IMG/VR virus record: IMGVR_UViG_3300007735_000776
Span: 1-62,893 of that record
Strand: one strand, 5' to 3'
Origin: a virus
Taxonomy: Duplodnaviria > Caudoviricetes
DNA: 62,893 nucleotides
In this document: positions 7,824 through 48,846 of the stretch, piece after piece
Position numbering within the stretch: the stretch's first letter is position 1
How the letters are laid out: each line of letters opens with the position of its first letter
The notes under the pieces: generated by a model
Databases searched by the model: none
Told to the model about the DNA's origin: nothing
What the model saw: the letters and a program-made list of their open reading frames with translations, nothing else
Program-made: the position numbers and the translations under genes

Positions 7824-7897
7824 ATGTCTTACAGTGGTAGTAGCGAGAAGTAAACCAGCGGTACTTGCGAAGCAACATCAACTAAAAGGAGAAACAA

Positions 7898-8995
7898 ATG
7901 AGTGCAATCAACTTTGGTCATTCCGTATCTTTGCAGGAGTTCTCGAAAGCAATCGGGCAGGTAGGGCGTAGTGTCACCATCATCGGACAGGGCGAGCCGG
8001 GCATTGGCAAGTCTGCCATGCTGAAAGTTCTTTCCAAGCAACACCCAGACTACGCAACGGCGTACATCGACTGCACCCTGCTGGACTTGGGCGACTTTGC
8101 CCTGCCATATACAGAGAGCGTATTAACAGATGTTAATACAGAGGGCAGCGTCACGAAGATCACTAAGTTCGCACCAAACGCACGGTTCAAGATGCACGAG
8201 GGCAAGCCGGTGATCGTGATGCTTGACGAGATCGGCAAGGCAATGAAGGCGGTCAAGAATGTGCTGCTGACTTTGATGCTGGAGCACAGGATCGGTGACC
8301 ACTATCTGCCCGAGGGTAGCATCGTGTTCGGTACTACAAACTTGTTGACAGATGGTGTTGGTGACATGCTCGAAGCTCATGCAAGGAATCGTGTGTGCTT
8401 TGTGACCGTGCGCAAGCCTGATGCAGACGAGTGGATCGAGTGGGCAATCAGTAACAACATTGATCCAACCATCATCGCGTGGGTCAAGCAGTTCCCGCAT
8501 GCACTGGCAAGCTATACCGACGGATCGCAGAAGGAGAACCCATACATATTCAACCCGACGCGTGCCGGTAACGGTGCGGTGGTTACACCAAGAAGTTTGG
8601 AGAAGGCATCGAACATCGCTAAGCAACGTGGCGAACTAGGTGACGCACTAACAATCAGTCTACTCACAGGCACTATTGGTGAGAGCGCAGCGCGTGACAT
8701 GCAAGCCTTCTTTACTGTGGTGGACAAGCTGCCGACATGGGATGCCATCCTGAATGATCCGAAGAACGCGAAGCTGCCGGACGATACGGTTGCCAAATGT
8801 ATCTTGGTGTTCTCTGCGGTGACACGTGTGACTAAGGATACGTTGGACAAGTGGATGGGTTACATGCAGCGCATGGACATGGAGTGGCAAGCCTTGTTCG
8901 CAACGAGCGTGATGAAGTCCACTGACAAGCAGTCGTTCTGTGTCATGAACAAAGAGTTCAAGGACTGGGCACTGAAGAATCAGTGGTTGTTCTGA
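7898..8995 (+). CDS. AAA+ ATPase (MoxR/dynein-related type)
   Basis: GEPGIGKS Walker A, VMLDE Walker B, sensor TN, R-finger NR, and TPRS motif. Confidence 0.9.
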   Translation: MSAINFGHSVSLQEFSKAIGQVGRSVTIIGQGEPGIGKSAMLKVLSKQHPDYATAYIDCTLLDLGDFALPYTESVLTDVNTEGSVTKITKFAPNARFKMHEGKPVIVMLDEIGKAMKAVKNVLLTLMLEHRIGDHYLPEGSIVFGTTNLLTDGVGDMLEAHARNRVCFVTVRKPDADEWIEWAISNNIDPTIIAWVKQFPHALASYTDGSQKENPYIFNPTRAGNGAVVTPRSLEKASNIAKQRGELGDALTISLLTGTIGESAARDMQAFFTVVDKLPTWDAILNDPKNAKLPDDTVAKCILVFSAVTRVTKDTLDKWMGYMQRMDMEWQALFATSVMKSTDKQSFCVMNKEFKDWALKNQWLF

Positions 8996-9269: not shown

Positions 9270-9282
9270 CAGGAGTTAATAA

Positions 9283-10479: not shown

Positions 10480-10658
10480 AGCCGTTAAAGCCAAGCACGT
10501 ACGCAGTATTGAGGGATAAAGATGGACACATTCGCTACGTCAGCGAGTACGCCATGAAGAACTTCAAGCACATACGGCAAGGCGATAAGGTGATAGGGCG
10601 CGGGTTAACCGTGGAAGAAGTAAATGCGTTACTTAAATTAACACCTGTTAACAAATAG
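10476..10658 (+). CDS. Small hypothetical protein
   Basis: GTGA-coupled 60-aa ORF. Confidence 0.55.
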   Translation: MKPLKPSTYAVLRDKDGHIRYVSEYAMKNFKHIRQGDKVIGRGLTVEEVNALLKLTPVNK

Positions 10659-10667
10659 GAGAGTGCC

Positions 10668-11537
10668 ATGATTCAGAATAGTTCAATGTTGGTTGACCTA
10701 AACATCTCGGTATGGACAGGTCGCAAGCAAGACAAACGTGTGTCCGATGAGATCGATGCCGCCAAGAGTACCAAGACGAGGGCTGGCAACTATCATAAGA
10801 AATTGCTGGCAGGTACACAGAAGCTAGATGACTTGCAAAAGTTAACTACAGGTATTCGTACGTGGCACTACACGCAGACGTTGCCGTGGTCGGATGGTGG
10901 CTCACGCCTACTACCCATGAAGAACTTCTTTGACTACAAAGCTACGTTGTCTGACTTGGAGACGCAGTTCAATGATGCAGTGGAGTCGTTCCTAGTTGAT
11001 TACCCTACGCTGGTATCCGCTGCGGCGTTTCAGTTGGGTGACTTGTTCGATGCCTCAGAGTATCCAGATGTCGAGCGACTACGTGACAAGTTCCGCTTCC
11101 GCTTTGTGTTCTTGCCAGTGCCTGACGTGGGTGACTTCCGCATCGATGTTAACGAGCAGCACAAAGCCGAGTTGGTTCAACAATACGAATCGTTTTACCA
11201 GAACAAGTTGTCAGAAGCAATGCAGGACGCTTGGGATCGGCTGCACGATTGCGTATCTAAGATGAGCGAGAAGCTGGCGAACGCACCTGCACCACGACTG
11301 ACCAAAGATGGTGACGAGAATTACACACAGATATTCCGTGATTCGCTGGTGACTAATGCGGTGGAGTTGTGTGAGTTGCTGACCAAACTCAACGTGACTA
11401 ATGACCCGAAGCTGGAGAACGTACGTAAGAATCTGGAATCCACTATCGATGGTGTATCGGCTAAGGAGTTGCGTGAGGATGATGGCTTGCGCTTGGTCGT
11501 AAAGGCAGAGGTAGACAAGATTCTGTCTATGTTCTGA
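10668..11537 (+). CDS. Conserved hypothetical protein (DUF3150-like), usual partner of AAA/vWA pairs
   Basis: W.GRK.D, TLPW.D.G.RLLP and F...YP motifs; gene context. Confidence 0.6.
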   Translation: MIQNSSMLVDLNISVWTGRKQDKRVSDEIDAAKSTKTRAGNYHKKLLAGTQKLDDLQKLTTGIRTWHYTQTLPWSDGGSRLLPMKNFFDYKATLSDLETQFNDAVESFLVDYPTLVSAAAFQLGDLFDASEYPDVERLRDKFRFRFVFLPVPDVGDFRIDVNEQHKAELVQQYESFYQNKLSEAMQDAWDRLHDCVSKMSEKLANAPAPRLTKDGDENYTQIFRDSLVTNAVELCELLTKLNVTNDPKLENVRKNLESTIDGVSAKELREDDGLRLVVKAEVDKILSMF

Positions 11538-11574
11538 ATAAGTTAACACGTGTTAATAAATCAAGGAGAGTGCG

Positions 11575-12378
11575 ATGTTAAATTTTGTAGATGTTGAGAA
11601 AGCCGATGGAACTCCGCTACTGAGTATTGTGAAAGAGTTCCGGCGTGTGCAGGTCAGTCGGTTCCCAATCAACGTGGTGTTCACATCGGGGATACAGGCT
11701 AAGTTCTACGACAGCAGGTTTCCTAACCTAAAGCCTGTTGCTAACGTATGGCAAGACTCTGATAGGGAGGGTGACTATTGGGTTATTGAATCTCGCAACA
11801 TAGTCAACGAGAAGTACAGGAACGAGCGTCGGCATCGTAAGCAAACGAAGGATGATAAGAAGCTGTTTCGGTTCATGCGTGAATACATCAAGCCAGTCTC
11901 ATCCCAAGATGTTGCTATGGATAAGCTATCTACCTTCCAACACCACATTGAAGAGTGGAAGCGTGATGCAGAGATGAAGATGCGAAACGTCACAGACATT
12001 TCCAGAAACGACGTGATGGCTGAGATTATCCGTATGAAAGCAGTTGGGTATCAACCACAGACAGAGAAGTTTGCACGAGTTATGGATAGCGGTATCGAGG
12101 CGTGGGTAGAGTATCGTCGCAGACGTGAGCGCAGGATCATGCAGGTGCACGTGCTCATCAACCCTGATGATTCTGTCGAGGTTTACTGCCCTGACTTGCT
12201 TGGGTATGGCGGCATACAACAAGGCAACAACAACTACAACTCGATGGACGAGGCACCAATGTGCGTTCAACAACAAGTTGCCATGCTGCGCATGATCGAG
12301 GACAAGGCGTTCATTCCTGAAGTGGGCAGCAAGATAAACAGCCATCAGTATTGGATCGAGGTGATGCCTGAAGAATAA
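11575..12378 (+). CDS. Hypothetical protein (267 aa)
   Basis: Long ORF with a GGAG RBS. Confidence 0.8.
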   Translation: MLNFVDVEKADGTPLLSIVKEFRRVQVSRFPINVVFTSGIQAKFYDSRFPNLKPVANVWQDSDREGDYWVIESRNIVNEKYRNERRHRKQTKDDKKLFRFMREYIKPVSSQDVAMDKLSTFQHHIEEWKRDAEMKMRNVTDISRNDVMAEIIRMKAVGYQPQTEKFARVMDSGIEAWVEYRRRRERRIMQVHVLINPDDSVEVYCPDLLGYGGIQQGNNNYNSMDEAPMCVQQQVAMLRMIEDKAFIPEVGSKINSHQYWIEVMPEE

Positions 12379-12443: not shown

Positions 12444-12734
12444 ATGACTGAGATTGAATTGGCAACATTACGATTTTTCATTTGGGTAAAGCTTGACGCG
12501 ACAGGTGACGTGATTGAACTCATTCTTGGAGACAACGCATTACTTGATACCGTGAAGCTACCCGATATTTCTGAAGTACCACAGTTCGTGAGGGATAGAC
12601 TTGCGTTACTTAAATTAACAGGTGTTAATAGATCAAACATCAAAGACATTGTAGGTAGAAAGATGTCTGACGAGATGATGATTCTTTACTTAAACCGTGA
12701 TGAGTACGATCAAATAAAGGAAGAGTGCAAATGA
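12444..12734 (+). CDS. Hypothetical protein
   Basis: Start trimmed to ATG 12444, downstream of the promoter. Confidence 0.65.
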   Translation: MTEIELATLRFFIWVKLDATGDVIELILGDNALLDTVKLPDISEVPQFVRDRLALLKLTGVNRSNIKDIVGRKMSDEMMILYLNRDEYDQIKEECK

Positions 12735-12907
12735 AAAAGAAACTTTCAGCGCAGGACGAGATAGCTAACTTGGAGAATCGATTAGCCAAAGCACGAGCCG
12801 AGATCGACAACCTACAACATCAACTACAGCAACTAACCATCAAGTACTACGACACGGCAGCAGTGCTGAAGTATTTGGAATCTAAACTAAGCATCACGAG
12901 AAAGTAA
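12731..12907 (+). CDS. Small coiled-coil protein
   Basis: Heptad pattern; ATGA coupling. Confidence 0.65.
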   Translation: MKKKLSAQDEIANLENRLAKARAEIDNLQHQLQQLTIKYYDTAAVLKYLESKLSITRK

Positions 12908-14714: not shown

Positions 14715-14931
14715 CGAGCAACTACACCTACAGGCAGCGACCTATGCAACCAACCGCAAAAATGCCTACGTTGAAGGAATGAAAAGCGGCGAAGTAGACC
14801 ACATGAGTGAAGAAGCATTGAATGGCAAGTGGCTTGCACACTACGAGGGATACAAAGAAGGCTATTGGGTGGCAACGGGAGATGATCGATACACAACAGA
14901 CCCAGCCAAGCTGAAGGAGAAGAACACATGA
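14707..14931 (+). CDS. Hypothetical protein
   Basis: Coupled ORF. Confidence 0.6.
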   Translation: MDDEQLHLQAATYATNRKNAYVEGMKSGEVDHMSEEALNGKWLAHYEGYKEGYWVATGDDRYTTDPAKLKEKNT

Positions 14932-19469: not shown

Positions 19470-19543
19470 GTAGTTTACAAAGTTTTGTTCGTTAGGCTGC
19501 GAGTGGAAATACCACTTTCGGCCTATCGGCGTCTGGAGAAAGA

Positions 19544-21091
19544 GTGCAAATCATAGACAACAAGGCGTTGCTGCTGCGAGTAAAAGAACCAAACCGCATC
19601 ACAACCGTTATACCAAAAGCAAAAGTCCTAGACACAGGCGAGGTGCTTGTGAAATGGGGGTTGGAAGAAGCGCAGGTGCTGAAGAACTTGCGCATCAAGA
19701 ATGTTCCATCACCAATCAAAAACAAGTATTCGTGGCCCGGACTTTATAAGCCGTTCGACCATCAGAAAGAAACCGCTTCATTCCTCACCCTGCACAAACG
19801 AGCGTTCTGCTTCAACGAGCAGGGTACTGGCAAAACATCGAGCGTTATCTGGGCGGCAGACTATCTGCTGAACGAGGGAGCCATCAAGCGGGTGTTGGTG
19901 CTGTGTCCGCTATCCATCATGCAGTCGGCGTGGGAGACAGACTTATTCAGGTTTGCCATGCACCGCACGTGCGCAATCGCACACAGCTACTCCAGAGAGA
20001 AACGAGCCGAGGCAATTAACAGCGAAGCTGAGTTCGTGATCATCAACTACGACGGAGTAGAGATAGTCAAAGACGAGATCATTAAAGCTAACTTTGACTT
20101 GATCGTGGTGGACGAGGCCAACGCCTATAAAAATATTCAGACAAAACGCTGGAAAACTTTTGCGTCCATCATCAAGCCGAACACATGGGTCTGGATGCTG
20201 ACCGGAACCCCTGCCTCGCAATCCCCAACGGACGCATACGGCCTTGCCAAAATTATCAATCCGGGCGGCGTACCTAAGTTCTACGGTGCTTTCCGAGACA
20301 TGGTGATGCAGCGCATTACGCAGTTCAAGTGGATACCGAAGCCCCGCTCAGAGCAGATAATCCACGAGGTCTTGCAGCCAGCCATACGGTTTACCAAAGC
20401 TGAGTGCCTCGACCTGCCAGACATGACATACGTAACGAGAAACGTGCCACTGTCCGCACAGCAAAAGAAGTTCTACGAGATCATCCGCAGAGATATGATG
20501 ACCGTAGCCGCAGGAGAAGAAATTACCACAGTCAACGCAGCCGCAAACTTAAACAAGTTATTGCAGTTGTCATGCGGTGCTGTGTACTCAGATACAGGTG
20601 AAGTCGTAGCGTTCGACGCCAAGAACCGGATGGCTGCTTTGTTAGAAGTTATTGAGGAAGCCAGCCACAAGGTCATCGTGTTCGCACCGTTCAAGCATGC
20701 TATCGAGATCGTCGCTGAAGAATTAAAGAAAAACAACATTAGCACCGAAGTAATACATGGCGGCATCAGTGCTACAAGACGCACGGAAATCTTTGCAAAT
20801 TTCCAAACAGAGACAAACCCACAAGTGCTGGTCATCCAACCACAAGCTGCTGCGCATGGCGTAACACTACATGCTGCAAACGTCGTTGTGTGGTGGGGTC
20901 CGATTACATCTATTGAAACATACTTACAAGCCAACGCTCGTGTTCATCGGGCCGGACAACGTAATCCATGCACCGTAGTACATCTTCAGGGGAGTCCAGT
21001 GGAGCAACGCATCTACAAGATGTTGTCTGAAAAAGTAGACATACATTCGAAGCTAATCGACCTGTATAAAAATGTGATGCAAGACGCTTGA
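19544..21091 (+). CDS. SNF2-family (SF2) helicase
   Basis: QGTGKT, DEAN, TGTP and QANARVHRAGQ motifs. Confidence 0.92.
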   Translation: MQIIDNKALLLRVKEPNRITTVIPKAKVLDTGEVLVKWGLEEAQVLKNLRIKNVPSPIKNKYSWPGLYKPFDHQKETASFLTLHKRAFCFNEQGTGKTSSVIWAADYLLNEGAIKRVLVLCPLSIMQSAWETDLFRFAMHRTCAIAHSYSREKRAEAINSEAEFVIINYDGVEIVKDEIIKANFDLIVVDEANAYKNIQTKRWKTFASIIKPNTWVWMLTGTPASQSPTDAYGLAKIINPGGVPKFYGAFRDMVMQRITQFKWIPKPRSEQIIHEVLQPAIRFTKAECLDLPDMTYVTRNVPLSAQQKKFYEIIRRDMMTVAAGEEITTVNAAANLNKLLQLSCGAVYSDTGEVVAFDAKNRMAALLEVIEEASHKVIVFAPFKHAIEIVAEELKKNNISTEVIHGGISATRRTEIFANFQTETNPQVLVIQPQAAAHGVTLHAANVVVWWGPITSIETYLQANARVHRAGQRNPCTVVHLQGSPVEQRIYKMLSEKVDIHSKLIDLYKNVMQDA

Positions 21092-21122: not shown

Positions 21123-21542
21123 ATGAGATATAGACTATCGATCCCAACCGCGACAGAACTACACAGCATCCTCGAATACCACGATGGCTGCTTGTATTGG
21201 AAGGTTACTGCGCATGGTAAACCTACTGACGAACGAATACGTGCTGGCTATCTAAATAGAGTCAGTGGGTATAGAGGAATTACCATCAACGGTACTACAT
21301 ACGCAGAACATAGAATTATTTGGAGAATGTTTCATCCACGAGGACCAATGCCTTTCGTTTTAGACCACATAGATGGTAATCGTAGTCACAACCGCATCGA
21401 AAATCTTCGAAGATACACCGAGAGCGGTAATCAAAATAATCGGCACCTTGGCATGGCACCAAAGGTACGAAGCTCGGGAAGATTAAAACGCCTTTTACAA
21501 ACGAAGGAGAGTGCAAATGTCAGACCCCATCAACGCCGATAG
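21123..21542 (+). CDS. HNH homing endonuclease (free-standing)
   Basis: G.LYW, HRIIW, DHIDGNRSHNRIENLR. Confidence 0.9.
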   Translation: MRYRLSIPTATELHSILEYHDGCLYWKVTAHGKPTDERIRAGYLNRVSGYRGITINGTTYAEHRIIWRMFHPRGPMPFVLDHIDGNRSHNRIENLRRYTESGNQNNRHLGMAPKVRSSGRLKRLLQTKESANVRPHQRR

Positions 21543-21900
21543 ACTTGCAAAGGTCTACGTCAAAATACGCGAGAAGCGTCGCGAACTTGCCAAGCAAGAT
21601 AAAGAACTCGAAGAGCAACTAGATGCAGTTGCTAGACAGTTGCTTGAGATTTGCAAAGAGCAAGGAGCCGCAACGATACGCACATCACACGGAACCATCT
21701 CACGCAGAACCACGAAGCGATTCTGGCCTACCGATTGGGATGAGTTCTATAAATTCATCAAGGATCAAGACGCGATGTCGCTTCTTTATCAACGCATCAA
21801 TACAGCAAACATGGAACAGTTTCTTGAAGAAAACCCCGATCTCCATCCGCCGGGGCTGAACGCGGATGTTTCTCAATCCATTGTTATCGTTAAACGCTAG
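21517..21900 (+). CDS. Conserved hypothetical protein of the replication module
   Basis: ATG 21517 after GGAGAGTGCAA; YVKIR and DWDEFYKFI motifs. Confidence 0.75.
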   Translation: MSDPINADRLAKVYVKIREKRRELAKQDKELEEQLDAVARQLLEICKEQGAATIRTSHGTISRRTTKRFWPTDWDEFYKFIKDQDAMSLLYQRINTANMEQFLEENPDLHPPGLNADVSQSIVIVKR

Positions 21901-21910
21901 GAGAGTGCAA

Positions 21911-22801
21911 ATGAGTAACGAACTTGCAGTGCTTGACCAAGGTCTGCCTTCATACCTTAAAAATGCTGAACTGGATGCCACAACTAAAGCCCTCATGGGT
22001 GGCGGTGGTGGTGAGTCAAAACGTATCTCCATCAAGGGCGGTGTATGGCGCATGATGGTCAACGGCAAAGAGATTGCTAAGAACGAAGACCGCTCGATGA
22101 ATGTAGTTGTCGTAGCGGCTGCGGAGAAAGTATCGCGCACGTTCTATGCAAAGCAGTATTCGGAAGGCAGTGAAGTGACTGCACCTGACTGCTGGTCTGC
22201 CAACGGCGAAATGCCTGACGCAAAAGCCAAGAACCCACAGGCTAAGCGTTGCCTAGACTGCCCACAGAACGAGCGTGGTTCTGGTCAAGGTGACAGCCGT
22301 GCTTGCCGCTACAGCCAGCGTCTTGCAGTCGTGCTTGCCAATGACATCAGAGGAGACATCTTCCAACTGACGCTTCCTGCTGCTTCTATCTTTGGTGCTG
22401 GTGAAGCTGGTAAGTGGCCTTTGCAAACATACGCCAAGATGATTGGTAGCAAGGGTGTTCCCATCACTGCTGTGGTGACTGAGATGCGCTTTGATACTGA
22501 CAGCGCTACACCGAAGCTGACGTTCAAGCCAGTACGTGTTCTGGAGCCACAAGAGCACGAGGCGGCTATTACTCAAGGCAAGAGCCCCGCTGCGTTACGT
22601 GCCATCACCATGACGGTTGCTGAAGCAGATGGTGTGAAGATTCCTGAAGTTGAGTTTGAAACCGTGAAGCCCAAAGCTAAAGCGGTAGAAGCTGTAGAAG
22701 CCGTGGTTGAAGAAGAGCCTGTCAAACGAGTAGCGAAGAAAGAAGAAGCACCGACTGAAAAGAAAGACCTGTCAAAAATCCTTGACGAGTGGGATGACTG
22801 A
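21911..22801 (+). CDS. Probable ssDNA-binding protein (Cys-containing, acidic tail)
   Basis: PDCWS..G, CLDCPQN, RACR and an acidic LDEWDD C-terminus; located in the replication module. Confidence 0.55.
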   Translation: MSNELAVLDQGLPSYLKNAELDATTKALMGGGGGESKRISIKGGVWRMMVNGKEIAKNEDRSMNVVVVAAAEKVSRTFYAKQYSEGSEVTAPDCWSANGEMPDAKAKNPQAKRCLDCPQNERGSGQGDSRACRYSQRLAVVLANDIRGDIFQLTLPAASIFGAGEAGKWPLQTYAKMIGSKGVPITAVVTEMRFDTDSATPKLTFKPVRVLEPQEHEAAITQGKSPAALRAITMTVAEADGVKIPEVEFETVKPKAKAVEAVEAVVEEEPVKRVAKKEEAPTEKKDLSKILDEWDD

Positions 22802-23123: not shown

Positions 23124-26000
23124 ATGCTCTCTCGCAAAGAATTTTTTGCACTGGTGCTACCACCTCTTGAAGAAGGTGAACACTACTGCAATTGGGGCAA
23201 TAAAAAAGAACTAGTAGAAGAAGATGGCGAGTCAAAGCTAAAAGATGTTGTACGGCAACGGTTTGCTGGAAGTATTGACGCTCTCAGTGATCAAGCTGAT
23301 GCGCTTCAGGCGAATGGCTTTAACTCCTTCTTTGCATTAGCAAAATTTGGTGCGATTAAGAACGGACGCTATGCGGCTAATGCAATTGCGTTGAAGTCGT
23401 TCTTTATAGACCTCGACTGCGGGGAGAACAAGCCGTACCCCACTTTAGATGACGGTCTAGCAGCACTCAAAAATTTCTGCAAACAAACTGGGCTACCGAA
23501 GCCGACCATTCTTAGGTCTGGGCGCGGTGCGCATGTGTACTGGATTCTGGAAGAGGCCATCTCCAAAGAAGAATGGAAGCCGATGGCTGAGCAGCTAAAG
23601 CGGCTGTGCACAGAAAACAAGTTTGATATTGACTACGCTGTACCAGCGGACGCGGCACGTGTATTGCGGGTTCCTGAAACAAACCACCTGAAAGACCCGA
23701 CCAACCCGATACCGTGTGAGATTCTGTATCTGGCATCCACCGTAACTAACGAGGACATAAAAGAATTATTAAAGCCTTCCGAGTCGGTGCTGGATGAGAT
23801 TGCCAAAGAGTATGGCAAGCGTCCGTTAGACCCAACTACGCTGGCGTTGATAGGCGCAAGTCAGTCGCGCTTCAAGACAATTCTGCTTAAGTCCATCGAA
23901 GGCAACGGCTGCGCTCAGATTCTAAACATCTACAACAACCAAGACACCATCGAAGAGCCGTTGTGGAGGGGAGGGCTGTCAATCGCGCAGCAGTGTGTTG
24001 ATCGTGATAAAGCCATTCACAATATTAGTAAGCGGTATCCGGGGTACTCAGCTTCAAATACAGAGAAGAAAGCTAACGAGACTAAGGGTCCTTACACTTG
24101 CGAGACATTCAAAAAGTTAAATCCTGTTGGCTGCGAAGGATGTGAGCACAAGATTACGTCACCGATCCAGCTTGGAAAAGAAATTGTAGAAGCTACCGAA
24201 GAGGATAGCGTCGTCACAGGCGTAGTGCCGCAGACGCAAGAGGTGAAAGAGTATGTAATCCCCAAGTATCCGTTTCCATTCTTCCGTGGCAAGAACGGTG
24301 GGGTGTTTATACGCGCCAAGAACAAGGACGATGAAGAGGTTGAGGAAGTTGTATATCCATACGACTTCTACGTAGTGAAGCGTATGACTGACCCGGACTT
24401 GGGGGAAACAATCCTGCTACGTCTCCATCTACCGAAAGACGGTGTGCGTGAGTTCATCTTGCCGCTGTCCTCGGTGTTGTCAAAAGATAAGTTCAGGGAA
24501 GCCATAGCACAGCAAGGGATAGCCGCCTTGAGTAAGCAGCAAGACACTCTTATGTGGTACGTGACTAAATGGGTAGAAGATTTGCAAATGAAAACTCAAG
24601 CAGAAAAAGCACACAAACAGTTTGGGTGGATAGAAGACGAGTCCGGCATCATCATTGGGGATAGGGAGATCAGACCAACTGAAACGGTATATAGCCCACC
24701 ATCTGCACCGACGCTGCCGCTCATACCGCTCTTCACCCCCAAAGGCGACTTCCACATCTGGAAGGATGTCATCAACGCCTACGGTAGACCGGACATGCAG
24801 AATCGGGCGTTTGCCTTCTTCATGGGGTTTGGCACTCTGCTACTTCGCTTGACCCCGCTAGATGGGTTTCTGGTGAACTTGATGAGCCGCGAGTCTGGAT
24901 CAGGAAAGACCACAATTTTACATGCCATCAACAGCATCTACGGCAGACCCAAAGAGTTGATGCTTGCGCCTAAAGATACGTACAACTCGCGGATGCAGCG
25001 GCTTGGCACTATGCAGAGTCTTGCAGTCACGATGGACGAGATCACTAACATGCCGCCGGATCAGATGTCACAACAAATTTATGACGTGACTTCTGGGCGG
25101 GGTAAGAACCGCATGAGCCGCCATGAGAACGCAGAACGTATCAACCACACCAAGTTTGCAACTGGCTTGATCACATCGAGTAACCGGTCCGTGCCCGACG
25201 CGCTACTTTCTATAAAAGGTTTTCCTGATGGTGAGTTGAACCGTATCTTGGAGATCAACGTAAAGCCAGACCCCCACAATGATCCTTTGTGGTCACGCAG
25301 CCATTTCAGTCGGCTGTTAGACAACTATGGGCATGCGATTGAGCCTTACTCCAAAGCGGTGCTTGGGCAGTTGCCTATGGTTAAGCAGAAGATGGAGGAG
25401 TTTCTAACCCGAATAGAAACCGCAGCGGATATTAGAAGCACAGAACGCTACTGGTCAACTATGGTCATGCTGAGTGTTACTGGAGGAGCGATTGCCAAAC
25501 AGCTAGGACTGCACGACATTGCCATCAAGCCTGTGTTTGATTACGGTGTAGAACTAATCAAGACAACTCGTACTCACATCAAAGAGAACATGCTCGACGC
25601 CGAGGACTATCTAGGTGGGTTCTTGCAGCGGCACTTTCATGAGATTCTGGTCATCAATGGCACTCGTGATAAGCGTACTGGGTTGGAGCATGGCCCGATA
25701 CGTGAGCCACGTGGGGCGCTTAGCATCCGCTACGAGCCTGATACCAAGATGCTATTTATCGTCACGAAAGTTTATCGGGATGACTGCGCCAAGTCGCTCA
25801 CCAACTTTGAAGAGTCCTTGATACCGTACCGCAAGAACAAGGCTTTGGTTGAGATCAAGAAGAAGCGCATGACATCAGGAACTGTTGCCAACACGCAAGC
25901 ACCGGTTAGCGCCTTGTGCTTTGATACATCTAAGCTGGAATACTTCAGCGACACTGTGTTGCTTAAAGATGAAGATACTGGGTTTGCCGCTACTGATTGA
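23124..26000 (+). CDS. Primase (RepB/AEP-like) - DUF927 - helicase fusion
   Basis: FIDLD, SGRGAHVYW and D.ARVLRVP primase motifs; Cys cluster; SGSGKTT Walker A; TMDE Walker B. Confidence 0.85.
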   Translation: MLSRKEFFALVLPPLEEGEHYCNWGNKKELVEEDGESKLKDVVRQRFAGSIDALSDQADALQANGFNSFFALAKFGAIKNGRYAANAIALKSFFIDLDCGENKPYPTLDDGLAALKNFCKQTGLPKPTILRSGRGAHVYWILEEAISKEEWKPMAEQLKRLCTENKFDIDYAVPADAARVLRVPETNHLKDPTNPIPCEILYLASTVTNEDIKELLKPSESVLDEIAKEYGKRPLDPTTLALIGASQSRFKTILLKSIEGNGCAQILNIYNNQDTIEEPLWRGGLSIAQQCVDRDKAIHNISKRYPGYSASNTEKKANETKGPYTCETFKKLNPVGCEGCEHKITSPIQLGKEIVEATEEDSVVTGVVPQTQEVKEYVIPKYPFPFFRGKNGGVFIRAKNKDDEEVEEVVYPYDFYVVKRMTDPDLGETILLRLHLPKDGVREFILPLSSVLSKDKFREAIAQQGIAALSKQQDTLMWYVTKWVEDLQMKTQAEKAHKQFGWIEDESGIIIGDREIRPTETVYSPPSAPTLPLIPLFTPKGDFHIWKDVINAYGRPDMQNRAFAFFMGFGTLLLRLTPLDGFLVNLMSRESGSGKTTILHAINSIYGRPKELMLAPKDTYNSRMQRLGTMQSLAVTMDEITNMPPDQMSQQIYDVTSGRGKNRMSRHENAERINHTKFATGLITSSNRSVPDALLSIKGFPDGELNRILEINVKPDPHNDPLWSRSHFSRLLDNYGHAIEPYSKAVLGQLPMVKQKMEEFLTRIETAADIRSTERYWSTMVMLSVTGGAIAKQLGLHDIAIKPVFDYGVELIKTTRTHIKENMLDAEDYLGGFLQRHFHEILVINGTRDKRTGLEHGPIREPRGALSIRYEPDTKMLFIVTKVYRDDCAKSLTNFEESLIPYRKNKALVEIKKKRMTSGTVANTQAPVSALCFDTSKLEYFSDTVLLKDEDTGFAATD

Positions 26001-26220
26001 GTGGGATAAGTTCAAGCCGGGAACTTCGTTCTTTGTACCGTGCTTGGATCGGAAACTCACCCAGCGATTCGTTGAAGCGGAGGCAAAACGCTTGCGACTA
26101 AAGGTCATCTGTAAGCAAGTTGTGGAGAAGGGGAAGTATGGTTTACGGGTCTGGAGAGTTGAGGATATAATTCCCTCGCACTCTTCTTCTCCTTCGCTCC
26201 CTGTTGTTGAGAAGACTTAA
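25969..26220 (+). CDS. Small hypothetical protein
   Basis: W..F.PG.SFFVPC...GLRVWRV. Its low-complexity tail overlaps the candidate sRNA. Confidence 0.65.
   Translation: MKILGLPLLIEWDKFKPGTSFFVPCLDRKLTQRFVEAEAKRLRLKVICKQVVEKGKYGLRVWRVEDIIPSHSSSPSLPVVEKT
26142..26171 (+). promoter_or_regulatory. Putative promoter for the candidate sRNA
   Basis: TTTACG (26142-47), 18 nt, perfect TATAAT (26166-71). No + strand gene starts downstream. Confidence 0.5.
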
Positions 26221-26247
26221 CCCCCGGCAGGTCCGGGGGTCTTTTTT
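26178..26247 (+). ncRNA. Candidate trans-acting small RNA (~70 nt)
   Basis: Lies between the TATAAT and a terminator; 5' GCACUCU seed, internal hairpin, terminator hairpin. Confidence 0.5.
26220..26247 (+). terminator. Rho-independent terminator at the convergence of the two arms
   Basis: ACCCCCGG-CAGGT-CCGGGGGT followed by CTTTTTT. Confidence 0.85.
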
Positions 26248-29200
26248 AGTCCTCATCCTCATCCAGCAGGGCGTTAATCTCCGGCATCAGGTTCTTGTTA
26301 AACCGTATGCCATTGATCATATTCTTTTCAGCGGCTTCCCTTGCTCTCATAGAGCGATCCAAAGTGTCTCTGGTAATCTTGGCCTTCGGATCAATCCTAC
26401 GTTCGTTGAAGCTGGCAATCTCTTCCCGAACTTCTTCCATCAAATCAGAATCCCCAGAAACTTTAGCCATCTCGTACTTGTCGAGCAGCTTGGAGCGACG
26501 TGCCATGACTTCCCGTTCGAAGCCTTTCTTTATGGCAGTTTCTTCGTAGATGTTAGACAGGTTGGCTGGCGAGAAGCCGATCACTTGCATAGCTACGTTG
26601 TACGCAGAAATATCTTCCACGATAGGGTCACCCTTCAGAGTGAGTGCGCCTTCTGATCCAAACCGCATAGCCTTCATACCGTTGCGGACAAAGCTTGGCA
26701 CCATAGCTTCAATACCACGCCATACTTCGCCTTCGCTTACCAACTTCGCGCCGTTGCCTACGCCCATAGCAAACGATCCAGCAGGACCAAATGCTTGCTT
26801 CATGGCGGTCAGCACATAACCATCTTCGGCAACGCCACGGCGGTCATCACGGAAGATCAAATCGTTAGCTACACCCACACGGTTAGCAATCTCCAAATTG
26901 GTTGCGTAGTTCACAAGACCTTTGTAGAGCAGCTCGTTAGTCCAGTTACGCATCATCGTGTCGAAGTCGTACGGCTCGTCATCATCTCCTAGCAACGCGT
27001 TGATCATTGTTACTAAAGTAGATGTGGCCCCCATGAATGGTAGACCCTTGATGCCAGCAAACGCCATCGCCATGCCGTAAATACCAACAAGCTGTCGGAA
27101 GGCTTCTTTACGAAGCGCCGGGCTTTCACCTTTGGTTGCCTGATGGAAGGCACGTGCCACCACAAAGGCTGTGTTCCATACAAAAGACTTAAACGTGAAG
27201 AACACACGACCCAACGGATGCTGCATATAGCGGGGGGCCGTTGAAGATAAGCCTGATGTGTTGATTTCTTTTACCGTGCGCAGCGCATACTGTATGGCGT
27301 CTTGCTCATTCATACCACTACCACGCGCCAGATCATAAGCAGCAATAGCAGTAGCACCACGGTTCAAGACTTCAGTCTTTTGGAACGGTATGGAGAGCGT
27401 GTCAAGTACACGTGCTTTGAGTCCGATGTAGTCGGAGGTAGTTTGTCTACGCCCTTCCAACACTTCCCTTGCCAGCGTGTGTTCCAACTGCGCATGGTCG
27501 TTCAACGTCTCGAATAGCTTTGCGTACTTAGGAGGTACCTTGTTGTTAAAAATGTAGTCGATTGTGGTTTTAGATGCGGATAGCAACGCACCGGAAGATT
27601 TGTCGAAGCCAAACTTCGCGCCAAGAATCGACCACGAAAACATAGGCAGCGTAGTCAAGTTAACTAATGCCGACGATACGTTGCCTGCAATGTAGTTAAA
27701 GTAACTGATCGTGGTTGCTGCGCTGGTAAAGTTGTTATACGTCGGGTTATGGAAGAACTCAGCTTGGTTCTCTATGTTCTGTGCAGCAACATAGACACCC
27801 TCCCCATCTGGTCGGGCTGAAGCAGCCTCACCTTGAGTAGCAATCTCACTTAGAGCACGGTCGATCTCAGGGTTGTACTTACTTGCCGACAGCTTGCGTG
27901 CCCACTTGATCATGGTTTCGCCATAACCGCGCACGATGTCGCGCTCCATGCCCCGGACGTTATCCGCTTTCATGAAGTTCTTTGCCAAAGATTCCGCAGG
28001 GAACAGGGCAAGATACGACTGGTATATGTTGTCTTTAAGCGTTTGGCTGGCACCCTGCTTATTTAGCTCGTTCATCAAGCCGACAATAAACGAAGAGGAA
28101 GGCAGTGTGCTTTGGTTGAACGTAGCTTTATTTATGTTCTGGTAAGCCTTGTGGGGTTTACCTTTGAGTTGCGTCTCGATGAATCTCTGGCGCTCACGCT
28201 GCGATTGGAACGCTTGTACTGCACGCTCACCATTCTCGTCATACTCAACCCAGAAGTCTCCACGACGCAGGAACGGAATATATCCAATCTGGCGTTTCCG
28301 TGCCTCGTACTGCGCCTTTAGCTTACGACGTGCAGATGGGTCTTCGACCGAGTTAATTAGGATGTCCTCGTACTCGTTAATGGCGGAGTCGTAGGCATTA
28401 CGAACATCTTTATAAACTTGTTGTACGTCGGCAGGCAGAGCGTCGTAGATATTTTTTAGGCGACGGTACTCAGCTTGCTGCGCAGGTGATGGCTTAAATT
28501 TGGGATCAAGCAGATCGACCTGTTCCAAACGCGCATCATAGGCCATGTCGTTCATACGGTTCATGGCTTGCGGGTAGCGACGCTCTACATCTAAGAACCG
28601 CTTGTAATCTTTGTTGATTGCCTTGATGCGTTGCTCTTCTGTACCGTTGCGAAGCTCCAAAGCATTTATAAGCTTTTGCAGTGATGGCAGCTCTTTGCCG
28701 TAAATCGTATTAATGTTGTCTAGCCGCAACAGTCCCATGGCTATGGACTTGGCATCACCGGGCACGTTAGACAAGTAGTTTCTAGTAGCCTCTGCGGTAC
28801 GCTCGCCAAGCTCCGGCATCGCTTGACCTATACGTCCAACAACACCAAACCCTGTATTTGCACCATTAGGCGTACCCAAGAACAGCAAGTCTCCAACCGA
28901 CGGGTCTACATCAGTCGAAATGTCCAGCGCATCACTAATTAACTTCAAGCCTTTGTCGTAAGCGTTAGTGCCTTTGCTAAACCCAAAGAACTCTGCCAAT
29001 GTCTGCATGAAACGTACAAACATGTTCTTGCTCTTGGGGGCCTTGATGGTCTTGAGTAGGGCTTGGAACTCTGGATTGCTAACCAGTTCAGCAGCAAACT
29101 CTTGCAGGTCTTTGGCACCGTAAGCAGTCCCCATCTGATTTTGGAGTTGCTCAAACAATGCGGTTAGTTGTTTGGTAACTGGCAGGTTGGGGTTACGCAG

Positions 29201-44649: not shown

Positions 44650-45147
44650 TTACGGTGTGTAATTCTGGCCCACAGTGGTGCCGTACCAGTTAGTGCCGTC
44701 ACTGTAGAACGAATAGATGTCCATGCGGCTTGCCGTAGTAGTTACAGTGGGAGCCGTTCCGCTAGGCCATTTCACTGTTGACCATGTCACCGTATAACTG
44801 CCTGCACCTGAACGCAGCAACAAGAGGAATGACTTACCAGCAGTGGCTGTCGGCATCGTAATCGTTGCAGAGCCAGTCAACGTGATGTCTTGCATCGTGC
44901 CGTTGGCGAGGTTCAGCGTGATTGCGGTACTAGAGTTCGCTGTAAAGCGCGTCTCTGTGTAGTTCGTAACCGTCGGGTTGGTTAGCGTGGAACCAGAAGG
45001 CAGCGGCACTGCGCTGGCAAACGTCACACCAGAATTAGTTACCGTAAGCTGAGTAACCCCAGCGCCCTGCAAGGCAAGCTGACCAGAAGCATCCGCTGTG
45101 ACTACCGCGCCGCCAACTACTGTGTCTGCATTAATATTGACAGCCAT
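44650..45147 (-). CDS. Tail fibre module protein
   Basis: VKWPSGTAPT.T....D.Y.F..DGTNWYG. Confidence 0.65.
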   Translation of the reverse strand: MAVNINADTVVGGAVVTADASGQLALQGAGVTQLTVTNSGVTFASAVPLPSGSTLTNPTVTNYTETRFTANSSTAITLNLANGTMQDITLTGSATITMPTATAGKSFLLLLRSGAGSYTVTWSTVKWPSGTAPTVTTTASRMDIYSFYSDGTNWYGTTVGQNYTP

Positions 45148-45336: not shown

Positions 45337-46011
45337 TTACGATTTTTGAATGCCGTAAAGACGAAAGGTGCCGGAAGTAAACGTCCCAGTATTTGGGTAA
45401 AACCGCAAACCTGTAATTGCAGCGGCTGTGCCTTGAGTTCCGCCACCCCACCCAATCGTATTGTCTGTTCCTGTTGCGGATGCCCCGATTGCTGAAGAGT
45501 TGACGTAAAACCCTTGGGCGTGTGCCGTAGTTGAGTTTGCATTAAGCATATACAGCGTGCCGAAACGTCTGTTTGTAGAAAGCGCCGTAAACGTCAAACG
45601 TATTTGGGTATCTCCAATGCCTCCGGTAGCGCCAGTGGTACCGTTAAACACTGAATAAGTGTAGTATTGAGAGTAATCGGTTGTTTGAAAAGCCGCCGAT
45701 TTATATACGTTTAAAAACAAGCTCGCATTTGCGCTAAATGCTACATTCTCAAACAAAATTAAGTAGTCATCATATGTAGAACTGATGCCGCTTGTGATGT
45801 CCACAGTTGAAGGAGTGCCAGAAACCGTGGTAACAGAGATAAACGTCATCGCACTAGCGGCTGGAGCCGCCACCCAACTCGGCGCACTTGCCCCATTGCT
45901 CTGCAATATCTGCCCGCTCGTTCCTGCCGCAGTAGATACGTAGTTTGTGCCGTCACCATAGACGACACCTCCAGCGGTGGGTGTGTTATTTCCTACTATG
46001 GTTACCGGCAT
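45337..46011 (-). CDS. Tail fibre module protein
   Basis: GTSGQ.L.SNG..APSW linker; GTFRLYG C-terminus. Confidence 0.65.
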   Translation of the reverse strand: MPVTIVGNNTPTAGGVVYGDGTNYVSTAAGTSGQILQSNGASAPSWVAAPAASAMTFISVTTVSGTPSTVDITSGISSTYDDYLILFENVAFSANASLFLNVYKSAAFQTTDYSQYYTYSVFNGTTGATGGIGDTQIRLTFTALSTNRRFGTLYMLNANSTTAHAQGFYVNSSAIGASATGTDNTIGWGGGTQGTAAAITGLRFYPNTGTFTSGTFRLYGIQKS

Positions 46012-47547: not shown

Positions 47548-48216
47548 TCACCAACTCGCTATAAGTGCAAAACCATCGCCACCAGTTCCGCTTACATTTG
47601 AACCACCACAACCAATACCCGGACGATTGATTGTATTGCTGTAGCTGCCAATTCCTACAATAATCGGCTGTAATTGAAAGTAGCCAGTCAAATTTGTTGT
47701 ATATCCATAATTTGCAGTTGAAAAACCTGAAGCACCGGGCGACCCGCCTGAAAGAAAAGTGGTGGTTGATGGAGTAATTGCCGCAGACATACCGGCTTGA
47801 CCAACGACCGATTGATAAAAACCCATCGCCTCAAAAGCACTAGTTGCAGAAGAAGCTGTACCCCCATTAATGCCACTTGCTGAGTTTGCTCTTAATAGTT
47901 CAGTAAATGCAGACGTTGAAAACCTTCCATATATACCCGTTCTATCACCATTACCACCACGATCGACTTTTACAAATAAGATGTCGGGCAAATTTTGCGC
48001 AGCGCCGTACCAAACACTTACAGCACCAGAACCACCACCTGATCCAGCACCATCACCATTACCGCCCGCACCAATTAACATGATGTACACATGACTTACG
48101 CCCGTAGGCTTATTCCAAGACAGTTTCGGTTGCAATGCTGTTGTAAATGGCGCATAAAACATCTGCACATCAGCATTAGCCGTGCGAAATTGATTCTGAT
48201 GTTGCCGAACAAACAT
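47548..48216 (-). CDS. Glycine-rich virion protein, paralog 1
   Basis: Same motif set as its neighbours. Confidence 0.7.
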   Translation of the reverse strand: MFVRQHQNQFRTANADVQMFYAPFTTALQPKLSWNKPTGVSHVYIMLIGAGGNGDGAGSGGGSGAVSVWYGAAQNLPDILFVKVDRGGNGDRTGIYGRFSTSAFTELLRANSASGINGGTASSATSAFEAMGFYQSVVGQAGMSAAITPSTTTFLSGGSPGASGFSTANYGYTTNLTGYFQLQPIIVGIGSYSNTINRPGIGCGGSNVSGTGGDGFALIASW

Positions 48217-48218
48217 AT

Positions 48219-48425
48219 TTACTCCGTATACCAGCTAGGAACGGCAGCGTTATCGTTTACGCAGGTGTACTCCACATTCTCCTCACCCAAAGGCGTACCG
48301 TCAGCACGATAAACGCCTATGTACGATCCTGATGAATCCAAATGTGCATACCCATCAGAACCGTCTGAGAATTGAAGCAGAAACCAGCTATCAGTATCGC
48401 GCCACATATTAGTAATCTCCGGCAA
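48219..48425 (-). CDS. Small hypothetical protein
   Basis: Fills the gap between fibre genes; the start may be 48407. Confidence 0.5.
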   Translation of the reverse strand: MPEITNMWRDTDSWFLLQFSDGSDGYAHLDSSGSYIGVYRADGTPLGEENVEYTCVNDNAAVPSWYTE

Positions 48426-48846
48426 TTGTCACGACCGAGTAACCAGTACCAGCAGCACCAGTCGATGTACCAAACGTCACATACAGAAGATAGTTAGGAT
48501 CAAGCGCAAAGTTCAGCGGCAATTCAAACACCGACGAGGCAGCAGTCTGAGATACCGTCACCGCAGGTAGTGTGATTTCATCGTACAACCAAGTGTTTGT
48601 TGCGTTAGTAGTTGTGCTAGTAGAAATAAATACTCGGCAGACTGTCGCGGCAGGAGAACCTACTGGACGAAAACGAATCTTCTGTACATAGGAACCGTTA
48701 GACCCCGCCGTGAACGCCTTGTATAGCGTTCCAGAGCCATCCTGTGCCGTGTTAGCGGTTGGGCCTACGATAAGACCAGAATTGTTAGTTGCAACCGAAT
48801 CAGTGGCTCCAACTATCGAATAAATAGGGCTAGTATTTGCTGGCAT
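48409..48846 (-). CDS. Virion beta-sandwich protein
   Basis: MPANTSPIY...GDY; context. Confidence 0.6.
   Translation of the reverse strand: MPANTSPIYSIVGATDSVATNNSGLIVGPTANTAQDGSGTLYKAFTAGSNGSYVQKIRFRPVGSPAATVCRVFISTSTTTNATNTWLYDEITLPAVTVSQTAASSVFELPLNFALDPNYLLYVTFGTSTGAAGTGYSVVTIAGDY

What the first reader, a model, noticed from the sequence alone, without database searches (positions are those of the whole stretch)
26142..26247. Candidate phage sRNA whose 5' seed targets a shared motif at the start codons of six of the phage's own genes
Seen: at the end of the early arm, a perfect TATAAT (26166-71; TTTACG 18 nt upstream) precedes no gene start, only about 70 nt ending in a strong terminator. 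Initiation 7 nt after the -10 gives an RNA starting GCACUCUUCUUCUCCUUCG. UCUUCUC (26185-91) can pair with GAGAAGA (26209-15), leaving 5'-GCACUCU free. Its complement AGAGTGC lies at six translation starts: 10660 (DUF3150-like), 11567, 12722, 19541 (helicase, overlapping the GTG), 21508 and 21902 (SSB-like), mostly as GGAGAGTGC(A)nATG. The 6-mer GAGTGC also overlaps the AAA ATPase start (7898). I saw only two other + strand copies in the early arm (6314, 13059), against roughly 1-2 expected by chance in 21 kb. The pyrimidine tract can extend pairing into the SD, e.g. CGAAGGAGA at 21502-10. Inference: one trans-acting sRNA shuts off translation of several early/replication genes, acting as an early-to-late or lysis/dormancy switch. 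I know of no described phage example with this multi-target design.
Basis: partly seen in the sequence, partly recalled or inferred. Interest (0 to 1): 0.88.

Follow-up and report, generated by a model that had tools for sequence, protein, structure and literature searches.

The report
Phage sRNA matching its early-gene ribosome sites
At the end of this uncultured freshwater phage's early genes lies a short conserved RNA gene whose front end is complementary to the ribosome-binding sites of several of the phage's own replication genes, and in related phages the RNA and those sites change together, which points to an RNA that controls their translation.

Summary
26142-26247 holds a sigma-70-like promoter (10/12), a CU-rich 5' end GCACUCU, a hairpin and an intrinsic terminator. 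One correction: the stretch is not non-coding. It overlaps the last 26 codons of a conserved 83-aa ORF (25969-26220). In relatives GCACTCT and the -10 box persist in two reading frames and after the stop codon, so selection acts on the nucleotides. AGAGTGC is not enriched genome-wide (10 vs 9.3), but 6 of 8 +strand copies lie between SD and start of early genes, and none at late genes. Across 22 clades the RNA fits its own Gam-like gene's initiation region better than other clades' RNAs do (0/20000 permutations). Clades with another seed (UUCUCCAAGG) carry TTGGAGAA at the orthologous genes instead. No RNA data exist, so the transcript, repression and timing are inferred. No matching family was found in Rfam or in my paper searches. 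It is a new variant of the ORF-embedded 3'-end sRNA.

The parts
26142..26147 (+). -35-like hexamer TTTACG, inside the codons for the conserved G-L-R of the small ORF
   Evidence: 10 of 12 matches, spacer 18. In relatives it is constrained by the protein, so it is not informative on its own.
26166..26171 (+). -10 hexamer TATAAT
   Evidence: In an alignment of 33 non-redundant relatives, positions 1, 4 and 6 are invariant and position 2 is at least 90% conserved, whether the hexamer is coding or lies after the stop. The spacing to the G of GCACTCT is 6, 7 or 9 nt in 43, 5 and 8 of 56 loci.
26178..26247 (+). predicted ~70-nt sRNA: a single-stranded seed, hairpin 1, then a terminator hairpin and U-tail
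   Evidence: MFE -24.5 kcal/mol, z -2.70. The same three-part layout appears in 36 relatives folded. No transcript data exist.
26178..26184 (+). seed GCACUCU
   Evidence: Exact GCACTCT is present in 56 of 76 related loci: in two coding frames (38 and 5 loci) and after the stop codon (13 loci). Conserved complementarity to the target starts exactly at this G.
26185..26196 (+). CU-rich tract UCUUCUCCUUCG. It can extend pairing into the Shine-Dalgarno region. Bases 26185-91 also form the 5' arm of hairpin 1.
   Evidence: (9-nt complement TCTCCTTCG/CGAAGGAGA at 21502-10)
26209..26215 (+). 3' arm of hairpin 1 (GAGAAGA)
   Evidence: Relatives carry different stems (UCUACU/AGUAGA, CCCCC/GGGGG, CCUCG/CGAGG, CCUCA/UGAGG). 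The RNA body folds better than shuffles in 23 of 25 representatives, mean z -1.59.
26220..26247 (+). intrinsic terminator (8-bp stem with 7 G-C pairs, 5-nt loop, U-tract), shared with the early operon and facing the end of the late arm
   Evidence: Stem pairs carry compensatory changes in relatives.
25969..26220 (+). small conserved ORF (83 aa) whose 3' end holds the promoter and the RNA 5' part. Its start overlaps the primase-like gene's end.
   Evidence: In the AlphaFold model residues 1-63 are folded and the tail 66-83 has low confidence.
21502..21519 (+). target 1: initiation region of the Gam-like/DUF7307 gene (21517..21900), CGAAGGAGAGTGCAAATG
19535..19547 (+). target: SNF2-type helicase start (GTG 19544), GGAGAAAGAGTGC
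   Evidence: The U-clade orthologue carries CCCTTGGAGAA instead.
10657..10670 (+). target: DUF3150-like gene (10668..11537), AGGAGAGTGCCATG
   Evidence: The orthologues carry TTGGAGAA in the U clade.
11563..11577 (+). target: 267-aa gene (11575..12378), AAGGAGAGTGCGATG
12719..12733 (+). target: 58-aa coiled-coil-like ORF (12731..12907), GGAAGAGTGCAAATG
21899..21913 (+). target in this clade only: 296-aa gene (21911..22801), AGGAGAGTGCAAATG.
   Evidence: No cognate-specific fit across clades.
7886..7905 (+). possible two-part target: AAA ATPase start, AAGGAGAAACAAATGAGTGC
   Evidence: The orthologues carry AGAGTGC (G004, G007) or TTGGAGAA (G001-G003) before the start.

Best explanation
26178-26247 encodes a ~70-nt base-pairing RNA. 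It is made from a sigma-70-type promoter embedded in the last codons of the small ORF 25969-26220, and probably also as the 3' end of the early operon transcript, and it ends at the shared intrinsic terminator. Its single-stranded 5' end GCACUCU, extended by the CU-rich tract, pairs with the stretch from the Shine-Dalgarno sequence to the start codon of a set of early genes: Gam-like 21517, helicase 19544, DUF3150-like 10668, 11575, 12731, 21911, and perhaps the AAA ATPase 7898. Shown here by computation: the anatomy; nucleotide-level conservation that does not depend on the reading frame; and co-variation of RNA and targets across relatives. Inferred: that the RNA is made; that pairing blocks 30S binding and so lowers translation of these genes; and that its build-up helps shut off early replication and recombination functions as infection proceeds.
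For: Anatomy: promoter-like site (10/12) and terminator; 5' seed free, hairpin, terminator in the fold.

Nucleotide selection: exact GCACTCT in 56 of 76 related loci. Of these, 38 are in frame xxG CAC TCT, 5 in frame GCA CTC T and 13 after the stop codon. The key -10 positions are invariant in 33 non-redundant sequences. The overlapped protein tail has low model confidence.

Targets: 6 of 8 +strand AGAGTGC copies lie in SD-start spacers, none at late genes. The motif is kept at orthologous starts in many relatives.

Co-variation:
- Cognate versus non-cognate fit to the Gam-like initiation region over 22 clades: longest complement 8.31 vs 7.02 nt, 0 of 20000 permutations; duplex energy 5 of 20000. 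Primase-like and 296-aa gene controls show nothing.
- L011 has a 16-nt perfect complement, L076 13 nt, L082 12 nt.
- In 15 anchored clades the 7-bp core has 100 Watson-Crick and 5 G.U cells. Pairing falls to 28 of 90 cells just upstream of the predicted +1.
- Three whole genomes of a clade whose RNA carries UUCUCCAAGG have TTGGAGAA 12, 11 and 11 times on the early strand. Of these, 8, 9 and 6 lie right before starts, including orthologues of 7898, 10668, 11575, 19544 and 21517. AGAGTGC lies at no start there. In the first 20 kb of G001 there are 10 copies against 0.72 expected.
- The cross-genome matrix is diagonal for three motifs.

Sub-threshold Rfam resemblance is only to CU-rich sRNAs.
Against: No RNA evidence of any kind: no listed run is RNA.

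The promoter is a consensus match inside a gene, and its -35 is fixed by the protein.

Hairpin 1 is not significant in single sequences (z -0.5 to -1.9), and RNAalifold on the MAFFT alignment found only the terminator.

A sliding duplex-energy scan did not rank most AGAGTGC sites at the top.

Clade grouping was mine, and clades are not fully independent.

The anchoring forces pairs at five of the seven core positions and left out 7 of 22 clades. One of those, L035, has an A.C mismatch.

Some complementarity reaches upstream of the predicted +1 (L011 4 nt, L002/L005 2 nt).

The 296-aa gene's site shows no cognate-specific fit.

The most distant clade (L084-L087) has AGAGTGC before two starts but no terminator after the small ORF.

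Whether the effect is repression or activation is unknown.
Confidence: 0.72

Rival explanations
1. The conserved element is only the 3' untranslated end of the long early mRNA, possibly released by processing. It has no promoter of its own and pairs with the upstream ribosome sites in cis or after cleavage.
For: It shares the early operon's terminator. In L011 and L002/L005 the complementarity extends 4 and 2 nt upstream of the predicted start. The -35 cannot be told apart from coding constraint.
Against: The key -10 positions are invariant even where the hexamer lies after the stop codon. Over 15 clades, conserved pairing starts at the base 7 nt after the -10 and is at chance level upstream of it (28 of 90 cells). 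The two routes do not exclude each other.
Confidence: 0.15
2. The motifs act at the DNA level. Either they are a repeated intergenic cassette homogenised by recombination with one inverted copy, or they are binding sites of a phage DNA-binding protein. No RNA-RNA pairing is involved.
For: Longer shared cassettes surround the motifs: TTAACACCTGTTAAC... before 10660 and 11567, and GTACTACTTTAAC before TTGGAGAA in G001. Late genes also share an RBS cassette with no matching RNA. The 5 wobble-type and 1 mismatch-type differences are all transitions. A split of 5 to 1 is only weakly unlikely if both types are equally probable (my calculation, about 0.11).
Against: Strong strand asymmetry: all copies at starts face one way, and the single inverted copy always sits between a -10 box and a hairpin plus terminator. 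The shared part is precisely the SD-to-start segment. Hairpin and terminator are conserved around it.
Confidence: 0.06
3. Coincidence. GCACTCT is kept because it encodes the tail peptide S-H-S of the small protein, and similar RBS spacers arise from selection for efficient initiation.
For: In 38 of 56 loci the motif is read as xxG CAC TCT. AGAGTGC is not enriched overall in the window.
Against: The same bases occur in another frame (5 loci) and after the stop codon (13 loci). The tail has low model confidence. The permutation test and the clade-specific motif switch cannot be explained this way.
Confidence: 0.02

Closest known systems
sRNAs with ORF-embedded promoters at mRNA 3' ends (DapZ, MicL, MicX)
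   Same: The promoter lies in the last codons of the upstream gene, and the RNA shares that gene's intrinsic terminator and acts in trans through a short seed. For DapZ the review states that a conserved promoter lies just upstream of the dapB stop codon (PMC9438474, passages seen).
   Different: Here the RNA is encoded by a probably virulent phage, and its predicted targets are genes of the same early arm. Its first 43 nt are still inside the ORF in this genome. Hfq dependence is unknown.
P1/P7 c4 antisense RNA and P22 sar
   Same: Phage RNAs that block translation of a phage gene by pairing around its ribosome-binding site (review PMC12197685, sections 2 and 7 read).
   Different: c4 and sar control one antirepressor gene in temperate phages and serve immunity. 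Here 5-9 replication/recombination genes are predicted targets, no integrase was found, and no Rfam C4 match appeared in the E-value scans.
T4 RegA translational repressor
   Same: Same logic: one phage factor competes with the ribosome at the initiation regions of many early mRNAs (about 30), with sites overlapping or just 5' of the AUG (PMC3014915, passages seen).
   Different: RegA is a 122-aa protein. Here the recognising molecule would be an RNA, so specificity is written in base pairs and can be traced by covariation.
CU-rich bacterial sRNAs: Betaproteobacteria toxic sRNA (RF02278), anti-hemB (RF02837), NmsRb (RF02877)
   Same: A short RNA with a pyrimidine-rich tract (UCUCCU/CUCC in the Rfam consensus lines), a hairpin and a terminator. 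RF02278 members are about 57-92 nt with terminators and were toxic when cloned in E. coli (PMC4603805, passage seen).
   Different: Scores of 20.4, 21.1 and 17.4 bits lie far below the gathering scores of 50, 49.5 and 52. The matches cover the hairpin and terminator, not the GCACUCU seed. This is resemblance in design, not membership.
VpdS (phage VP882) and PreS (lambda)
   Same: Phage-encoded trans-acting sRNAs with several targets. VpdS affects both phage and host mRNA levels (PMC12197685, section 2 read).
   Different: Those belong to temperate phages, were found experimentally, depend on Hfq and mainly reprogram the host. No shared RBS motif across a phage's own early genes is described in the sections I read.

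Membership tests
Rfam RF02278 Betaproteobacteria toxic small RNA | Covariance-model score at or above the gathering score (50 bits) | tested here: not met
   20.4 bits at 26186-26247
Rfam RF02837 anti-hemB | Covariance-model score at or above the gathering score (49.5 bits) | tested here: not met
   21.1 bits at 26185-26248
3'-end sRNA with ORF-embedded promoter (DapZ/MicL type) | Promoter inside the upstream coding sequence, near its stop | tested here: met
   Consensus match of 10/12 at 26142-26171, inside ORF 25969-26220. The -10 is conserved across coding and non-coding contexts. This is sequence evidence only.
3'-end sRNA with ORF-embedded promoter (DapZ/MicL type) | Shares the intrinsic terminator of the parental mRNA | tested here: met
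   Terminator 26220-26247 directly follows the ORF's stop at 26218-26220.
3'-end sRNA with ORF-embedded promoter (DapZ/MicL type) | A stable discrete transcript with a primary 5' end | not testable with these tools
   No RNA run is listed for this sequence.
3'-end sRNA with ORF-embedded promoter (DapZ/MicL type) | Seed pairing with trans targets, supported by conservation or covariation | tested here: met
3'-end sRNA with ORF-embedded promoter (DapZ/MicL type) | Association with an RNA chaperone (Hfq or ProQ) | not testable with these tools
   The host is unknown. The terminator U-tail is present, but that proves nothing.
P1/P7 c4-type immunity RNA | Match to the Rfam C4 model, and a temperate phage with an antirepressor target | tested here: not met
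   No C4 match in the E-value scans. No integrase or resolvase in the complete genome. The targets are replication and recombination genes.

The most novel reading that the evidence does not exclude
The seed and the ribosome-site motif form a clade-specific address code: GCACUCU/AGAGUGC, UUCUCCAAGG/CCUUGGAGAA, UUGCUCC/GGAGCAA. One small RNA uses it to govern a whole early replication regulon in virulent phages, as an RNA counterpart of T4 RegA. The code diversifies because it also works between phages. A resident or faster co-infecting phage would silence the early genes of any relative that shares its code, so switching the code escapes this RNA-based exclusion, much as c4 variants underlie P1/P7 heteroimmunity.
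Probability: 0.15. Interest if true: 0.9.

Novelty: new variant of a known kind. Interest (0 to 1): 0.78.

Why it matters
Few phage-encoded trans-acting sRNAs are known. The examples in the review I read come from temperate phages, and most act on the host or on a single phage gene. This case would be a widespread family: 65 viral contigs carry the linked small ORF, and near-identical DNA is held by runs from 11 further studies. It sits in probably virulent, uncultured aquatic phages and would control a multi-gene regulon. The regulon can be read from sequence alone, because seed and ribosome sites co-evolve. That gives a natural set of orthogonal sRNA/RBS pairs, a way to predict temporal control in uncultured phages, and a testable RNA analogue of protein translational repressors such as RegA.

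Tried and rejected
- Phage collection: no blastn match for 25500-26700 and no tblastn match for the small protein. The primase-like protein finds only distant relatives at 23-27% identity, so no cultured relative or host.
- Rfam: nothing reaches a gathering score.
- RNA runs: no RNA holder listed. Read laying was not used, because DNA contigs cannot show an RNA end.
- A sliding duplex-energy scan of the window with the first 24 nt was noisy. Apart from the helicase site, the AGAGTGC sites were not among the best 60 windows, while purine-rich sites at 14116 and 14896 were. Energy alone does not pick out the targets.
- RNAalifold on a MAFFT alignment recovered only the terminator, because the arms of hairpin 1 are out of register. 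I therefore built no covariance model and ran no count of structure pairs. The case for hairpin 1 rests on single folds and shuffles.
- The cognate test gave no signal for the 296-aa gene and primase-like gene initiation regions.
- The motif AGTGCTT, tried for the L036 clade, is not clade-specific.
- G008 holds only about 7 kb of the early arm and was uninformative.
- GGAGCAA in G006 is only weakly enriched (7 vs 3.0 expected; 6 of 200 shuffles reach 7).
- The small protein has no Pfam or PHROG family and no significant PDB fold match (0 at E <= 0.001). The idea that it is a known RNA chaperone has no support.
- Genome contigs gave only a 4.8-kb Nodosilinea MAG contig and one weak hit, so the host remains unknown.
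- The L084-L087 records are 28-56% complete, and I could not tell whether an RNA lies elsewhere in them.
- Supplementary files of papers were not consulted.
- Paper searches that found no description of this family.

Full report
WHAT IS THERE. The window is a complete 62,893-bp virus record with direct terminal repeats and no rRNA. Early and replication genes lie on the + strand up to about 26.2 kb. They include a family A DNA polymerase, a PD-(D/E)XK nuclease, an SNF2-type helicase, a DUF7307/Gam-like protein and a DUF927 primase-like protein. The late arm runs on the - strand from 26246. At the junction, the tool scan calls a promoter-like site at 26142-26171 (TTTACG, 18 nt, TATAAT; 10 of 12) and a terminator at 26220-26240 followed by a T-run. 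From 26178 the RNA folds as seven free bases (GCACUCU), a hairpin (26185-91 with 26209-15), and then the terminator hairpin. The MFE is -24.5 kcal/mol with z -2.70.

CORRECTIONS TO THE OBSERVATION. First, the stretch is not non-coding. ORF 25969..26220 (83 aa) runs through the promoter and the first 43 nt of the RNA. This ORF is a real gene: 66 of 84 candidate stretches in IMG/VR encode a relative, in 65 loci at 44-93% identity. Second, AGAGTGC is not enriched in the window as a whole. There are 10 copies against 9.34 +/- 3.27 expected, and 42 of 100 shuffles reach 10. The signal lies in placement. Six of the 8 +strand copies sit between the Shine-Dalgarno sequence and the start codon, mostly as AGGAGAGTGC(N1-3)ATG. 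A crude gene caller gives 6 of 33 early +strand starts and 0 of 45 late starts.

SELECTION ACTS ON THE NUCLEOTIDES, NOT ON THE PROTEIN TAIL. I examined 76 related loci that carry the conserved ...GLRVWR end of the small protein; 5 of them are second copies of a contig already counted. Exact GCACTCT follows within 60 nt in 56. It is read as xxG CAC TCT in 38 loci and as GCA CTC T in 5, and it lies after the stop codon in 13. In one further locus the ORF runs off the end, and 19 lack the exact word. A -10-like hexamer lies 6, 7 or 9 nt upstream in all 56 (43, 5 and 8 loci). In an alignment of 33 non-redundant sequences, positions 1, 4 and 6 of the hexamer are invariant and position 2 is at least 90% conserved. 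This includes cases such as TGA-TATAGT, where the hexamer follows the stop. In the AlphaFold model of the small protein (24-sequence alignment, mean pLDDT 82), residues 1-63 are folded and the tail has low confidence, with block means of 73, 52 and 47. The tail is therefore best seen as an incidental read-through into the RNA gene.

THE RNA LAYOUT IS CONSERVED. All 36 relatives folded from the predicted start show a short free 5' part, a hairpin with a CU-rich loop or arm, and a terminator. Stem sequences differ: UCUUCUC/GAGAAGA, UCUACU/AGUAGA, CCCCC/GGGGG, CCUCU/AGAGG, CCUCG/CGAGG, CCUCA/UGAGG. The hairpin is weak in single sequences (z -0.5 to -1.9). The body upstream of the terminator nevertheless folds better than dinucleotide shuffles in 23 of 25 representatives (mean z -1.59). 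These representatives are related, so this is supportive rather than decisive. RNAalifold on the MAFFT alignment found only the terminator.

THE TARGETS ARE CONSERVED AND CO-VARY. AGGAGAGTGC(N)ATG recurs in many relatives at the orthologous starts of the Gam-like gene, the next gene and the helicase. I grouped the loci by eye into 22 clades. I compared the fit of each clade's RNA to its own Gam-like initiation region (-27 to +6) with the fit of other clades' RNAs.

| Initiation region tested | Longest perfect complement, cognate vs non-cognate | Permutations reaching observed (complement) | Permutations reaching observed (duplex energy) |
|---|---|---|---|
| Gam-like gene (22 clades) | 8.31 vs 7.02 nt | 0 of 20000 | 5 of 20000 (20.2 vs 17.8 kcal/mol) |
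| 296-aa gene (21 clades) | 6.09 vs 6.04 nt | 7925 of 20000 | 2848 of 20000 |
| Primase-like gene (13 clades) | 4.92 vs 4.80 nt | 4976 of 20000 | 13719 of 20000 |

Individual cases are striking. L011 has 16 nt (CACTGCACTCTCCTTC with GAAGGAGAGTGCAGTG, including a GTG start). L076 has 13 nt, L082 12 nt, and L062, L017 and L078 11 nt each.

THE CORE HELIX. In 15 clades that could be anchored on the GCACTCT-type seed, the seven core pairs give 100 Watson-Crick and 5 G.U cells and no mismatch. Pairing drops to 28 of 90 cells in the six positions upstream of the G. The conserved helix therefore begins at the base predicted as +1. Two caveats apply. The anchoring patterns force pairing at five of the seven positions. 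Seven clades were left out, and one of them, L035, has an A.C mismatch.

THE SWITCH AT REGULON LEVEL. In one clade (L068-L076) the RNA lacks GCACUCU and carries CUUCUCCAAGG in hairpin 1. Three near-complete genomes of this clade (G001-G003) have TTGGAGAA 12, 11 and 11 times on the early strand. On the other strand there are 2, 2 and 3 copies, one of which is the RNA gene itself. Of the early-strand copies, 8, 9 and 6 lie within 13 nt of the start of an ORF of at least 40 aa. AGAGTGC lies at no start in these genomes. In the first 20 kb of G001 there are 10 copies against 0.72 expected, and 0 of 200 shuffles reach 10. By tblastn, the genes so marked are orthologues of window genes 7898, 10668, 11575, 19544 and 21517.

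A cross-genome matrix counts each motif at starts in each genome:

| Motif at starts | Genomes whose RNA carries the complement | Other genomes |
|---|---|---|
| AGAGTGC | 7, 5, 3, 4, 4 in five GCACUCU-type genomes | 0 in G001-G003 and G006 |
| TTGGAGA | 8, 9, 6 in G001-G003; 5 in G004, whose RNA reads GCAUUCUCCAAUUG | 3, 0, 1, 0, 1 |
| GGAGCAA | 5 in G006, whose RNA carries UUGCUCC twice | 0-2 |

A fourth motif, AGTGCTT, was not specific. Within the UUCUCCAAGG clade, G003's RNA has an extra G (AAGGGCA), and 5 of its starts carry TGCCCTT.

WHAT IT MOST LIKELY DOES. The complementary stretch covers the Shine-Dalgarno sequence up to or into the start codon, so pairing should compete with the 30S subunit. 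I therefore read the RNA as a translational repressor of an early replication and recombination set, with the Gam-like gene as its most constant target. Repression, its timing and any chaperone are inference. Activation or an effect on mRNA stability would fit the same pairing. No integrase or resolvase was found and the genome has terminal repeats. A role within the lytic programme is thus more likely than an immunity or dormancy switch.

COMPARISON WITH KNOWN SYSTEMS. In architecture this matches sRNAs with ORF-embedded promoters at mRNA 3' ends, such as DapZ (PMC9438474, passages). In logic it resembles T4 RegA, a protein that competes with ribosomes at about 30 early mRNAs (PMC3014915, passages). 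It also resembles the phage antisense RNAs c4 and sar, which block one ribosome site (PMC12197685, sections 2 and 7). Rfam gives only sub-threshold matches to CU-rich sRNAs. Five paper searches turned up no description of this family. I file it as a new variant of a known kind.

OPEN POINTS. There are no RNA data. The host is unknown. L084-L087 show AGAGTGC before two starts but no terminator after the small ORF. Some pairing reaches upstream of the predicted +1, which leaves room for a read-through or processed form.

Noticed in passing
window 25969-26220 (+): The small ORF is a conserved 83-aa family (KFKPGTSFFxPC...CKQVVEKGKYGLRVWR) with no Pfam or PHROG hit. Its start lies 32 nt before the end of the primase-like gene. 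The AlphaFold model (pLDDT 82) shows strand-helix-strand-strand. No PDB chain matches at E <= 0.001; the best-probability hit is ribosomal protein S8 (probability 0.92, TM 0.38), which is not significant.
   Followed up: partly
window, - strand late genes 44650..45147, 45337..46011, 47548..48216, 48409..48846 and neighbours: Late genes share their own ribosome-site cassette, (AA)GGAGTAAATCATG, in which TAA is probably the stop of the preceding gene. No complementary RNA was looked for.
   Followed up: no
window 10630-10660, 11537-11567; 6890-6920 and 9255-9285; G001 2321-2334, 3048-3061, 6540-6553: Longer shared sequences precede some target sites. TTAACAC(C/G)TGTTAA(C/T)AAAT lies before 10660 and 11567. 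TTAACAGGAGTTAATAAATG lies at the starts of 6918 and 9283. GTACTACTTTAAC lies before TTGGAGAA in the other clade. These could be promoters or operators.
   Followed up: no
L084-L087 (e.g. L085 2261-2295, 5800-5830, 6150-6420): The most distant clade has CTTAATGAGAGTGC before two starts, but no hairpin and T-run after the small ORF. The RNA is either absent or located elsewhere; the records are only 28-56% complete.
   Followed up: partly
Gam-like gene starts in relatives; window 7898-7905; L059 1549-1556: Many Gam-like genes begin ATGAGTGA, and two initiation regions read ATGAGTGC. This is a second near-complement to the seed just after the start codon, which suggests two-part pairing around the AUG.
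   Followed up: no
window 26246-32182 (-): A 1978-aa ORF at the start of the late arm carries an LPD39 domain and a weak DUF6782 metallopeptidase-like match. It is a large polyvalent protein.
   Followed up: no
L116 3001-3195: A 4.8-kb contig binned to a Nodosilinea (cyanobacterium) MAG encodes a relative of the small protein at 52% identity. Together with the Pam3 gp33-like domain of the Gam-like gene, this is a weak hint of cyanobacterial hosts for some relatives. The binning of such a short contig is unreliable.
   Followed up: no
window 14116-14136 and 14896-14930: Two further early starts (14134 and 14928) have long purine tracts, GCGAGGGAGAAGAA and GAAGGAGAAGAA. These are complementary to the CU-rich tract of the RNA rather than to the GCACUCU seed, so they are possible extra targets.
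   Followed up: no
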